Assembly (NCBI RefSeq): GCF_057098645.1
Contig: NZ_CM169472.1
Length of the DNA: 64,000 nucleotides
Reading direction: 5' to 3' (one strand)
The translations under genes were made by a program, and so were the position numbers. How positions within the stretch are numbered: position 1 is the stretch's first letter; every line of letters begins with the position of its first letter. Below are positions 1,084 through 1,449 of this stretch, piece after piece. The notes below the pieces were generated by a model that was not told where the DNA came from, did no database searches, and worked only from the letters and a program-made list of their open reading frames with translations.

Positions 1084-1449
1084 TTTATTTTTTCTCGATC
1101 AAATTAAGTTTACTTTGGTTTCTAATAGAAACTAATAATATTTCTATTGGAGTTAATTTGCGTTGCAATTTAATCGAAATCTACGCCGCCATTTGTGTGA
1201 TGTAAAGCGCGTTTTTATCTTGTGTAAGCGTAAACACTGCCTATAAGAAACTGAATTGGTTTCTTAAGTAAATAATTTTGAAAATCATTTTGTGCTATTT
1301 TAGCGTAAAAAAGAGTAAAGACTTGTTTTGATAAGCGAAATAAATTCTGTTTCTGGACTAAACGTGAAGCGGTTCCTGATGTGTGCTAAAATGCGTTTCT
1401 TTGATAAATCTCAATTTTTAAGAGGTTTACGCCAGGCAGGAAAATTTAA

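What the first reader, a model, noticed from the sequence alone, without database searches (positions are those of the whole stretch)
1117..1150. Inverted repeat in the promoter region of the secreted-protein gene
aatagaaa (about 1124-1131) and tttctatt (about 1141-1148) form an 8-bp inverted repeat with a 9-bp spacer, 35-65 bp upstream of the start codon. This is a plausible operator for a dimeric regulator, possibly the adjacent HTH protein.
Basis: seen in the sequence. Interest (0 to 1): 0.25.

Follow-up and report, generated by a model that had tools for sequence, protein, structure and literature searches.

The report
Operator array between adhesin and regulator genes
The small inverted repeat is real but is only the junction of two neighbouring copies of a conserved 15-bp motif (GTTTCT-N3-AGAAAC). 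The motif occurs about seven times between an E. coli adhesin gene (published as gmrA/z0639) and a small helix-turn-helix gene (z0640), and is most likely that protein's operator set, a link nobody has described.

Summary
**Observation.** It is not significant alone: 30% of shuffles of this 31%-GC spacer contain one. Its right arm is lost in most other E. coli alleles.

**What is conserved.** The hexamer GTTTCT/AGAAAC occurs six times in 365 bp (0.34 expected; none of 5000 shuffles reached six). It forms 15-bp pseudo-palindromes GTTTCY-N3-RGAAAC, often 22 bp apart centre to centre.

**Context.**
- The window is E. coli O145:H28, and the locus is O-island 29.
- The "secreted-protein gene" is a YadA-type trimeric autotransporter, published as "GmrA"/Z0639.
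- The 120-aa gene is Z0640, function unknown in the literature. It models confidently as an XRE-type helix-turn-helix domain (HigA2/MqsA-like).
- This gene pair, the roughly 365-bp spacer and the motif array travel together through different genomic contexts in several Enterobacterales.

**Best reading (about 0.55).** Z0640 dimers bind the array. They would autoregulate at the z0640 promoter and repress or modulate the adhesin promoter. Binding is inferred, not shown.

**Verdict.** New member of a known kind; modest interest.

The parts
1124..1148 (.). It is the right half of O1a plus the left half of O1b.
   Evidence: (I13). It is real, but 30% of shuffles have such a repeat, and the right arm is not conserved among E. 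coli alleles.
1118..1132 (.). O1a: GTTTCTAATAGAAAC, a perfect 7+1+7 palindrome and the best operator-like site.
   Evidence: It is the only zero-mismatch match to GTTTCTNNNAGAAAC in 64 kb. It is the top PWM hit in the window with a PWM trained on non-E. coli loci. GTTTCT is invariant and AGAAAC nearly so in E. coli alleles.
1140..1154 (.). O1b: ATTTCTATTGGAGTT, a second site 22 bp from O1a. It has a strong left half and a right half of the TGGRG type.
   Evidence: Distant loci have GTTTCTATAAGAAAT, GTTTCTATTGGGGTG or GTTTCTGTTGGAGTG at the homologous or equivalent place.
1162..1176 (.). O1c: GTTGCAATTTAATCG, a weak third site 22 bp further on. It overlaps the predicted adhesin transcription start.
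   Evidence: The GTT is invariant in all 14 aligned loci. L015 and L017 have full GTTTCC/GTTTCT here, giving three repeats at exact 22-bp steps.
1178..1206 (-). Predicted sigma-70 promoter of the adhesin operon: TTTACA (1206-1201), 17-nt spacer, TAGATT (1183-1178). The start is predicted near 1171.
   Evidence: It is the only promoter-like hit in 1000-1950. It lies inside the most conserved intergenic block, AATCTACGCC...TGTGATGTAAAGC, across all loci. No experimental start site is available.
1237..1251 (-). O2L: GTTTCTTATAGGCAG when read on the minus strand. Only its half-site AGAAAC (1246-1251) is strong.
   Evidence: Distant loci have full palindromes here (L013 GTTTCCATTGGAAAT, L017 GTTTCCAATAGAAAC).
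1259..1273 (+). O2R: GTTTCTTAAGTAAAT, centred 22 bp from O2L. With O2L it forms the 8-bp inverted repeat TAAGAAAC-N7-GTTTCTTA (1244-1266).
   Evidence: I18; PWM rank 3. The arms are conserved and the spacer varies among alleles.
1349..1363 (+). O3: GTTTCTGGACTAAAC, centred about -43 from the predicted z0640 transcription start.
   Evidence: GTTT is invariant in all aligned loci. It is a 2-mismatch match to the palindrome. It lies 46 bp from O4 in every close relative.
1384..1392 (+). Predicted extended -10 of z0640 (TGcTAAAAT).
   Evidence: Read directly from the sequence. The TGnTA(A/T)AAT pattern is conserved in all loci, including Hafnia (L025) and L026. The start site is not mapped.
1395..1409 (+). 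O4: GTTTCTTTGATAAAT, overlapping the predicted z0640 transcription start. It is the candidate autoregulatory site.
   Evidence: PWM rank 4. The same position directly after the -10 holds GGTTTCTAG in the 47%-identical homologue's locus L023.
1450..1812 (+). z0640 orthologue: a 120-aa protein with an XRE-type HTH (about residues 1-67) and a helical C-terminal domain. It is the candidate binder.
   Evidence: Primer mapping identifies it as z0640.
1..1084 (-). 5' part of the YadA-family trimeric autotransporter gene, the O145 allele of z0639/'gmrA' (436 aa). It runs off the left end of the window.
   Evidence: The signal peptide MKSVKLSLLAVVVATIVSPSAFA is read from the sequence. YadA_anchor scores 42 bits against a cut-off of 22.7.

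Best explanation

**The site.** Each site is a 15-bp pseudo-palindrome, GTTTCY-N3-RGAAAC. Usually one half is strong and the other degenerate. Neighbouring sites often sit 22 bp (two helical turns) apart.

**The proposed binder.** Z0640 is a 120-aa XRE-type HTH protein. Its DNA-binding domain resembles those of HigA2 and MqsA. The proposal is that Z0640 binds each 15-mer as a dimer and that dimers on adjacent sites cooperate.

**Proposed effects.**
- O4, over the z0640 start, would give autorepression.
- O3, at about -43, could give autoactivation.
- O1c-O1b-O1a, at about +2, +24 and +46 of the adhesin transcript, and O2L/O2R, at about -73 and -95, would repress or tune the adhesin operon.

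**Shown here:** the motif, its enrichment, conservation and phasing; the HTH fold; and the conserved gene pairing.

**Inferred:** that Z0640 is the binder, the positions of the transcription starts, and the sign of regulation.
For: 1. **Enrichment in the window.** GTTTCT/AGAAAC occurs 6 times in 365 bp against 0.34 expected, and 0 of 5000 shuffles reached 6.
2. **Enrichment in other loci.** GTTTCY is enriched in each of 8 other loci, including distant ones: 4-8 observed against about 0.4 expected, with no shuffle of 1000 reaching the observed count. The 15-mer pattern is also enriched.
3. **Concentration in the spacer.** Of 4 matches to the palindrome with at most 2 mismatches in the 64-kb window, 3 lie in this spacer. 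A PWM trained only on non-E. coli loci places its 4 best window hits, and the 8th, in the spacer.
4. **Conservation pattern.** Half-sites are conserved while flanks and spacers vary, both among E. coli alleles and in Pseudocitrobacter, Symbiopectobacterium and metagenomic loci.
5. **Phasing.** A 22-bp centre-to-centre distance is the commonest inter-site distance (13 pairs). O3-O4 is 46 bp in 8 of the 11 loci analysed.
6. **Conserved gene pairing.** The small gene is divergently paired with a YadA_anchor or adhesin-like gene across a spacer of roughly 230-380 bp in most loci examined, in at least four different chromosomal contexts. This includes three loci (L023, L025, L026) whose small protein is only 32-47% identical.
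7. **The protein has an HTH.** The AF2 model has pLDDT 93 and pTM 0.82. Foldseek hits are XRE-type HTH domains, with HigA2 (5j9i) best at TM 0.68 and rmsd 2.4 A over 63 columns, and the MqsA C-terminal domain (3fmy) also listed. Remote members hit Pfam MqsA_antitoxin at 2.4e-5, Xre-like-HTH at 3.7e-5 and HTH_3 at 2.5e-4.
8. **Matching operator geometry.** MqsA's operator is AACCT-N3-AGGTT (PMC4894380), the same geometry as TTTCT-N3-AGAAA.
9. **Possible co-variation.** Hafnia homologues have a changed recognition helix (PRNTIFNY instead of NRSTVWKY). Their spacers have no GTTTC but carry repeated TGTTCY sites, including AGAACATTTAATGTTCT. L026 (HRSTSHKW) has TTATCA/TGATAA palindromes instead.
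10. **Sites at the promoter.** A site sits directly after the conserved extended -10 of the small gene in E. coli-type loci and in L023. That position is typical of autoregulation.
Against: - No binding data exist for Z0640.
- Yang et al. 2018 (PMC5826968) report that deleting z0640 did not change motility, the only phenotype assigned to z0639. Z0640 is therefore not an indispensable activator of z0639 under their conditions, and any repression was phenotypically silent there.
- The window protein itself misses every Pfam gathering threshold (13.5 bits against 30). Foldseek E-values are weak (0.3 or worse), as is usual for a 65-residue domain.
- Half-sites occur in both relative orientations: GTTTCT-N3-AGAAAC, and AGAAAC-N7-GTTTCT. 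The true binding unit is therefore not settled.
- The co-variation argument rests on two or three divergent loci.
- The O4 right half overlaps a conserved FNR-like box (1401-1414). Part of the conservation there may belong to another factor.
- Transcription starts are predictions only.
Confidence: 0.55

Rival explanations
1. The GTTTCY sites are real protein-binding sites, but for a chromosomally encoded regulator of the host rather than for Z0640. Candidates are a LuxR/NarL-type or other adhesin/motility regulator, or FNR/CRP-, CpxR- or Fis-type factors for parts of the region.
For: - The region also carries a conserved FNR-like box (1401-1414) and an exact CpxR-type GTAAA-N5-GTAAA (1305-1319). 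Host factors therefore probably act here.
- TTTCT-N17-TTTCT (1119-1145) has the geometry I recall for EcpR/MatA boxes (TTCCT-N17-TTCCT). This is from memory; the paper was not retrievable.
- O1a fits the outer G...C and AT-rich centre of a Fis core (own knowledge).
- The z0640 deletion had no reported phenotype (PMC5826968).
Against: - The motif follows the gene module into different genera and chromosomal sites.
- The motif changes where the small protein's recognition helix changes: Hafnia has TGTTCY, and L026 has TGATAA palindromes.
- No known E. coli regulator consensus that I could recall matches GTTTCY-N3-RGAAAC.
- The EcpR-like match fails at the C of TTCCT in most sites and does not explain the palindromic partner.
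Confidence: 0.25
2. One reading: AATAGAAA-N9-TTTCTATT is itself the operator unit, with two half-sites 17 bp apart, bound by one dimer.
For: - The same inner arrangement, AGAAAC-N7-GTTTCT, recurs at 1246-1264 with conserved arms and a variable spacer.
- A weaker AGAAA...TTTCT pairing is visible in L011 and L015.
Against: - The right arm is lost in most E. coli alleles.
- O3 and O4 have no upstream AGAAAC partner at N7 (the sequence shows this; O3 has only CGAAAT).
- Free-standing full 15-mers, such as GTTTCCATTGGAAAT, GTTTCTATAAGAAAT and GTTTCTATTGGAAAC, occur in distant loci.
- An 8-bp inverted repeat of this kind appears in 30% of shuffles.
Confidence: 0.1
3. The repeat acts as an RNA hairpin in the 5' untranslated region of the adhesin mRNA, affecting stability or translation.
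For: If transcription starts near 1171, the repeat is transcribed. In the window allele it folds into a 9-bp stem.
Against: - The fold is not unusual: z = -1.29, and 22 of 200 shuffles fold as well.
- The hairpin is absent or replaced by unrelated structures in 13 other alleles and loci.
- The same motif occurs upstream of both predicted promoters, where it would not be in this RNA.
- No Rfam family matches.
Confidence: 0.04
4. Chance similarity in AT-rich, horizontally acquired DNA, with only non-specific H-NS-type silencing.
For: The spacer is 31% GC. Inverted repeats of this size are common in such DNA.
Against: - The hexamer enrichment was never reached in 5000 shuffles.
- The enrichment is seen independently in every locus examined.
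- Half-sites are positionally conserved amid diverged flanks.
Confidence: 0.05

Closest known systems
MqsA (E. coli antitoxin/regulator) and its operator AACCT-N3-AGGTT
   Same: - The best Pfam similarity of the 120-aa protein is to the HTH half of MqsA: 11 of 16 close members and 5 of 22 diverse members match, best E 2.4e-5.
- The hhalign alignment covers the HTH and the 'LL..L.K.PELL.E' tail.
- The MqsA C-terminal domain (3fmy) is among the fold hits.
- The operator geometry is the same: 5-6 bp arms with a 3-bp spacer (PMC4894380).
- MqsA carries two palindromes in its own promoter (own knowledge).
   Different: - There is no N-terminal zinc-binding domain.
- There is no MqsR-like toxin next door.
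- The half-site sequence is different.
- Z0640 has an extra roughly 50-residue helical C-terminal domain.
- The regulated neighbour is an adhesin operon.
HigA2 (Vibrio cholerae) C-terminal HTH domain and operator complex (PDB 5j9i, 8a0x)
   Same: It is the best structural match: TM 0.68 normalised to the target, rmsd 2.4 A over 63 columns, 24% identity. It is a dimeric XRE-type HTH that binds a palindromic operator in its own promoter.
   Different: HigA2 is an antitoxin with an N-terminal toxin-neutralising segment, and no toxin gene is present here. The Foldseek E-value is only 0.29.
Phage-type Cro/CI and controller (C) proteins with multiple phased operators (lambda cI, P2 C, C.Esp1396I, Aca2)
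   Same: - All appear in the fold hit list.
- Several similar pseudo-palindromic operators lie in a divergent control region.
- Site positions (about +2 and about -43 of the regulator's own promoter) resemble the combined activation and repression of lambda PRM and of C-protein circuits (own knowledge).
   Different: There is no phage, restriction-modification or anti-CRISPR context. The 22-bp operator spacing and the half-site sequence are specific to this family. Regulation is untested.
'GmrA' (Z0639) of O-island 29, Yang et al. 2018 (PMC5826968)
   Same: It is the same locus. Primer mapping shows that gmrA is the adhesin-like gene next to the repeat and that z0640 is the 120-aa gene. The paper states that the way gmrA expression is controlled (temperature, pH, osmolarity, host cells) is unknown.
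   Different: The paper treats Z0639 as a DNA-binding activator of fliA and Z0640 as a protein without phenotype. It describes no operator, no promoter map and no role for Z0640. By sequence, Z0639 is a signal-peptide-bearing YadA-type autotransporter.

Membership tests
XRE / Cro-C1-type HTH DNA-binding proteins (for the 120-aa protein) | Five-helix bundle with helix-turn-helix (helices 2-3) | tested here: met
   The AF2 model has pLDDT 93 with helices at 3-11, 15-22, 26-34, 41-56 and 58-70. The Foldseek hit list is dominated by XRE-type HTH domains.
XRE / Cro-C1-type HTH DNA-binding proteins (for the 120-aa protein) | Sequence match to a curated HTH family above its threshold | tested here: not met
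   The window protein matches only MqsA_antitoxin at 13.5 bits against a cut-off of 30, and no NCBIfam model. Remote relatives give E 2.4e-5 to 2.5e-4 against MqsA_antitoxin, Xre-like-HTH and HTH_3. The link is transitive rather than direct.
XRE / Cro-C1-type HTH DNA-binding proteins (for the 120-aa protein) | Sequence-specific binding to a (pseudo)palindromic operator | not testable with these tools
   There is only indirect evidence: conserved 15-bp pseudo-palindromes next to the gene in all loci.
MqsA-type antitoxin | N-terminal zinc-binding (4-Cys) domain and an adjacent MqsR toxin gene | tested here: not met
   The protein has no cysteines, and the alignment covers only MqsA residues 79-129. 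The neighbours are a YadA-type gene and ybbJ.
Trimeric autotransporter adhesin (for the 'secreted-protein gene') | C-terminal YadA-type membrane anchor, N-terminal signal peptide and coiled-coil stalk | tested here: met
   YadA_anchor scores 42 bits against a cut-off of 22.7 at residues 377-436. The signal-peptide-like N-terminus is read. The coiled-coil stretch attracts SMC-like matches. RefSeq annotates it as a YadA-like family protein.
   The right arm is replaced by TTGTT-TT or TTGTTAT in 8 E. coli alleles.
Intrinsic terminator or structured RNA element | Stable, conserved stem-loop (with a T-run for a terminator) | tested here: not met
   There is no terminator-like site here. The fold has z = -1.29. 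The fold is not conserved. There is no Rfam hit.
EcpR/MatA boxes (TTCCT-N17-TTCCT; recalled from memory) | Two TTCCT pentamers 22 bp apart | tested here: inconclusive
   The spacing is met (TTTCT at 1119 and 1141), but the pentamer differs at the C in the window and in most loci. The source paper was not retrievable.

The most novel reading that the evidence does not exclude
OI-29 and its relatives are a mobile, self-contained 'adhesin plus switch' cassette. Z0640-family XRE proteins would use a phased array of GTTTCY-N3-RGAAAC operators to run a lambda-like bistable or condition-responsive switch on a trimeric autotransporter operon.

On this reading, the island's genuine DNA-binding regulator is Z0640 rather than the protein published as the transcription factor GmrA. 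The reported effect of GmrA on fliA and motility would then need another explanation, for example envelope or adhesin-dependent signalling.
Probability: 0.3. Interest if true: 0.55.

Novelty: new member of a known kind. Interest (0 to 1): 0.35.

Why it matters
- **Reach.** OI-29 is present in about a quarter of complete E. coli genomes (1413 of 5426). These include EHEC O157:H7 and O145:H28, EPEC and ExPEC lineages.
- **An open question made testable.** The z0639 gene has been tied experimentally to motility and is induced under host-like conditions by an unknown mechanism (PMC5826968). A defined operator motif, candidate promoters and a candidate cognate regulator (Z0640, so far 'function unknown') turn that question into a simple EMSA and reporter experiment.
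- **A published inconsistency.** The protein called a transcription factor is, by sequence, an outer-membrane adhesin, while the island's only HTH protein was set aside.
- **What it is not.** It is not a new kind of mechanism. It is an ordinary HTH-operator system in a rare family, with only about 21-23 sequence clusters in the two large protein databases searched.

Tried and rejected
- **RNA hairpin or terminator.** The fold is not significant or conserved, and there is no T-run. No Rfam family matches the spacer; the only hits are REP/naRNA4-like elements at 1791-1954.
- **First structure prediction.** With the shallow alignment A1 it failed (pLDDT 57.6). Adding remote homologues (A2) fixed it.
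- **PDB sequence-profile searches.** These were uninformative, with E of 0.24 or worse.
- **Locus searches with alignments.** The single genome-contig scan, run with the Hafnia protein, returned only one further locus.
- **Literature.** Searches for a trimeric autotransporter at ybbJ/cueR found nothing relevant. Locus tags led to the GmrA paper. The EcpR box paper could not be retrieved.
- **Dam/Lrp phase variation.** The GATC at 1097-1100 is not conserved.
- **Invertible element.** There is no recombinase nearby, and the arms are too close together.
- **Other consensus sequences recalled from memory.** RcsB, PmrA, OmpR, Cra, Lrp and TyrR consensus sequences do not fit the motif's sequence or spacing.

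Full report
**1. Where we are**

The window matches E. coli O145:H28 chromosomes at 99.9% identity. The locus lies between cueR and ybbJ-qmcA-fetAB.

- On the minus strand is a four-gene set. It comprises a YadA-like protein (436 aa, start codon at 1084..1082, running off the left end of the window), a 140-aa lipoprotein, a 68-aa ORF and a 407-aa ORF.
- After a 365-bp, 31%-GC spacer (1085-1449) comes a 120-aa ORF on the plus strand (1450-1812).
- The spacer is present in 1413 of 5426 complete E. coli genomes. Most copies are only 84-89% identical to the window allele. This gave natural variation to work with.

**2. The observation**

- The repeat is not statistically remarkable. In dinucleotide shuffles of the spacer, 30% contain at least one perfect 8-bp inverted repeat with a 0-20 nt gap.
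- The repeat as drawn is not conserved. In eight other E. coli alleles the right arm reads TTGTT-TT or TTGTTAT.

**3. What is really there**

Both arms contain the same hexamer.

- GTTTCT/AGAAAC occurs six times in the spacer, at 1118, 1127, 1246, 1259, 1349 and 1395. The expectation is 0.34, and no shuffle of 5000 reached six.
- These hexamers are the conserved islands in the allele alignment, while flanks and spacers vary.

I then fetched the homologous control regions from more distant carriers of the small gene. These were Pseudocitrobacter, Symbiopectobacterium and several metagenomic Enterobacterales, with 61-86% protein identity.

- GTTTCY is enriched in every one of them: 4-8 copies against about 0.4 expected, with no shuffle of 1000 reaching the observed count.
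- Oriented on GTTTC, the sites read as 15-bp pseudo-palindromes GTTTCY-N3-RGAAAC. Examples are GTTTCTAATAGAAAC, GTTTCCATTGGAAAT, GTTTCTATAAGAAAT and GTTTCTATTGGAAAC.
- Many sites have a strong left half and a degenerate right half of the TGGRG type.
- A PWM built only from the non-E. coli loci was scanned over both strands of the whole 64-kb window. Its four best hits, and the eighth, fall inside the 365-bp spacer.
- Of four matches with at most 2 mismatches to GTTTCTNNNAGAAAC in the window, three are in the spacer.

The sites in window coordinates are:

| Site | Coordinates | Sequence / note |
|---|---|---|
| O1a | 1118-1132 | perfect palindrome |
| O1b | 1140-1154 | ATTTCTATTGGAGTT |
| O1c | 1162-1176 | weak in the window, strong in L015 and L017 |
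| O2L | 1237-1251 | read on the minus strand |
| O2R | 1259-1273 | |
| O3 | 1349-1363 | |
| O4 | 1395-1409 | |

Spacing is regular.

- The centres of O1a, O1b and O1c are 22 bp apart, and so are O2L and O2R.
- Across loci, 22 bp is the commonest inter-site distance (13 pairs).
- O3-O4 is 46 bp in 8 of the 11 loci analysed.

The repeat exists because two copies of one motif sit back to back. The 8-bp repeat TAAGAAAC-N7-GTTTCTTA at 1244-1266 has the same explanation (O2L and O2R).

**4. Promoters (predicted, not mapped)**

- *Adhesin strand.* The only sigma-70-like site found in 1000-1950 is on the adhesin strand: TTTACA (1206-1201), 17 nt, TAGATT (1183-1178). It lies in the most conserved block of the whole spacer, AATCTACGCC...TGTGATGTAAAGC. 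A start near 1171 would put O1c, O1b and O1a at about +2, +24 and +46.
- *Small gene.* An extended -10 (TGcTAAAAT, 1384-1392) is conserved in all loci, including Hafnia and L026. O4 overlaps the expected start at about 1399, and O3 is centred near -43.

**5. The neighbouring protein**

- The 120-aa protein belongs to a very small family. There are 21 clusters in 5.8 billion proteins and 23 representatives in 1.84 billion.
- Alone it only grazes the HTH half of Pfam MqsA_antitoxin (E 0.08), as do 11 of 16 close relatives.
- More remote members hit MqsA_antitoxin (2.4e-5), Xre-like-HTH (3.7e-5), HTH_3 (2.5e-4) and HTH_26.
- With the diverse alignment, AlphaFold2 gives a confident model (pLDDT 93, pTM 0.82).
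- Its Foldseek hits against the PDB are dominated by XRE-type HTH domains: HigA2 (TM 0.68, rmsd 2.4 A over 63 columns), Aca2, P2 C, C.Esp1396I, lambda cI and the MqsA C-terminal domain. E-values are weak, as expected for about 65 residues.
- MqsA binds AACCT-N3-AGGTT (PMC4894380), the same geometry as TTTCT-N3-AGAAA.

**6. Linkage between protein and sites**

- In most loci examined, the small gene is divergently paired with a YadA_anchor or adhesin-like gene across a spacer of roughly 230-380 bp. The chromosomal context differs: cueR-ybbJ, qmcA-fetA, next to nrdAB, next to a RES-Xre toxin-antitoxin pair, and ribE-MFS in Hafniaceae.
- L023 carries a homologue only 47% identical to the window protein. 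It keeps three GGTTTCT sites, one of them directly after the -10.
- Hafnia homologues have a changed recognition helix (PRNTIFNY instead of NRSTVWKY). GTTTC is absent from their spacers, which instead carry repeated TGTTCY sites (GTTCCTGATGGGG, and AGAACATTTAATGTTCT in L025; GTTCTTAATGGGAT in L027).
- L026 (HRSTSHKW) has TTATCATGATAA and TTGATAATTATCAA instead.

This looks like co-variation of protein and operator, but it rests on few loci.

**7. Literature**

The island is O-island 29 of O157:H7.

- Yang et al. 2018 (PMC5826968) named Z0639 'GmrA'. They reported it as a transcriptional activator that binds the fliA promoter. They found no motility phenotype for z0638 or z0640 deletions, and stated that the control of gmrA expression is unknown.
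- I mapped their deletion primers onto an O157:H7 locus. gmrA/z0639 is the YadA-family gene, z0638 is the lipoprotein gene, and z0640 is the 120-aa HTH gene.
- No paper found describes operators, promoters or a role for Z0640.
- The lack of a z0640 deletion phenotype argues against Z0640 being an essential activator of z0639. It is compatible with a repressor or modulator.

**8. Rival explanations**

- *RNA hairpin.* It forms in the window allele, but it is not unusual (z = -1.29) and is not conserved.
- *Host regulator.* This cannot be excluded. A conserved FNR-like box (1401-1414) and an exact CpxR-type tandem (1305-1319) show that other factors probably act here. The TTTCT-N17-TTTCT spacing recalls EcpR boxes, but that is from memory and unverified.

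**9. Verdict**

- The best-supported mechanism is a phased array of Z0640 operators controlling both divergent promoters (confidence about 0.55). That the array is a functional protein-binding motif of some kind is much more certain (about 0.85).
- It is a new member of a known kind of system and is of modest general interest. It has some added value for EHEC biology, because it supplies a testable regulator for z0639/'gmrA' and highlights an inconsistency in the published annotation.

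Noticed in passing
window 1-1084 (minus strand); L002 5017-6033: The protein published as the transcription factor 'GmrA' (Z0639, PMC5826968) is by sequence a trimeric autotransporter. 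It has a Sec-type signal peptide, a coiled-coil passenger that attracts spurious SMC/TMF-type matches, and a YadA_anchor above the Pfam threshold. Primer mapping confirms the identity. A cytoplasmic DNA-binding role is hard to reconcile with this.
   Followed up: partly
window 1401-1414: TTGATAAATCTCAA is an FNR/CRP-family-like box (TTGAT-N4-ATCAA with one mismatch) just after the z0640 -10. It is conserved at the same place in most loci and is perfect in L015 (TTGATACACATCAA) and L026 (TTGATAATTATCAA). It overlaps the right half of O4. On its own it is not significant in the window; the conservation is the argument.
   Followed up: partly
window 1305-1319: GTAAAAAAGAGTAAA is an exact CpxR-type tandem (GTAAA-N5-GTAAA). 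There are 2 matches in 64 kb against 0.12 expected. It is conserved in E. coli alleles and Pseudocitrobacter and partly elsewhere. It suggests envelope-stress input to this adhesin locus.
   Followed up: partly
window 1174-1210: The block AATCTACGCC-N-TGTGATGTAAAGC is the most conserved non-coding stretch across all loci. It is more conserved than a -35/-10 pair alone would require: ACGCC in the spacer and TGTGA next to the -35 are near-invariant. An additional bound factor is possible.
   Followed up: no
window 1791-1954: REP-type palindromic elements lie between z0640 and ybbJ. They appear as sub-threshold naRNA4 (RF02564) matches on both strands.
   Followed up: no
L001 9736-13084; L002 4310-6033; L004, L005, L008: The adhesin operon is variable.
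- The autotransporter is 436 aa in O145 against 338 aa in O157:H7 and E2348/69.
- An extra 407-aa ORF next to cueR is intact in O145, frameshifted in E2348/69 and absent in O157.
- In some genomes the YadA-like gene is annotated only from 0.7-1.1 kb away from z0640, which suggests a disrupted 5' part.
   Followed up: no
L001 1-9331 (upstream of cueR, outside the window): A giant SiiE/BapA-like adhesin gene (pseudogene, internal stop) with its type I secretion genes abuts cueR. Two different adhesin systems therefore flank cueR in these strains.
   Followed up: no
L025 3193-3500, L027, L026 3270-3560: In Hafniaceae the homologous small-gene/autotransporter pair sits between ribE and an MFS transporter gene. 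It carries different repeated motifs: TGTTCY in Hafnia, and TGATAA/TTATCA palindromes in L026. These loci are useful for a specificity-swap experiment.
   Followed up: partly
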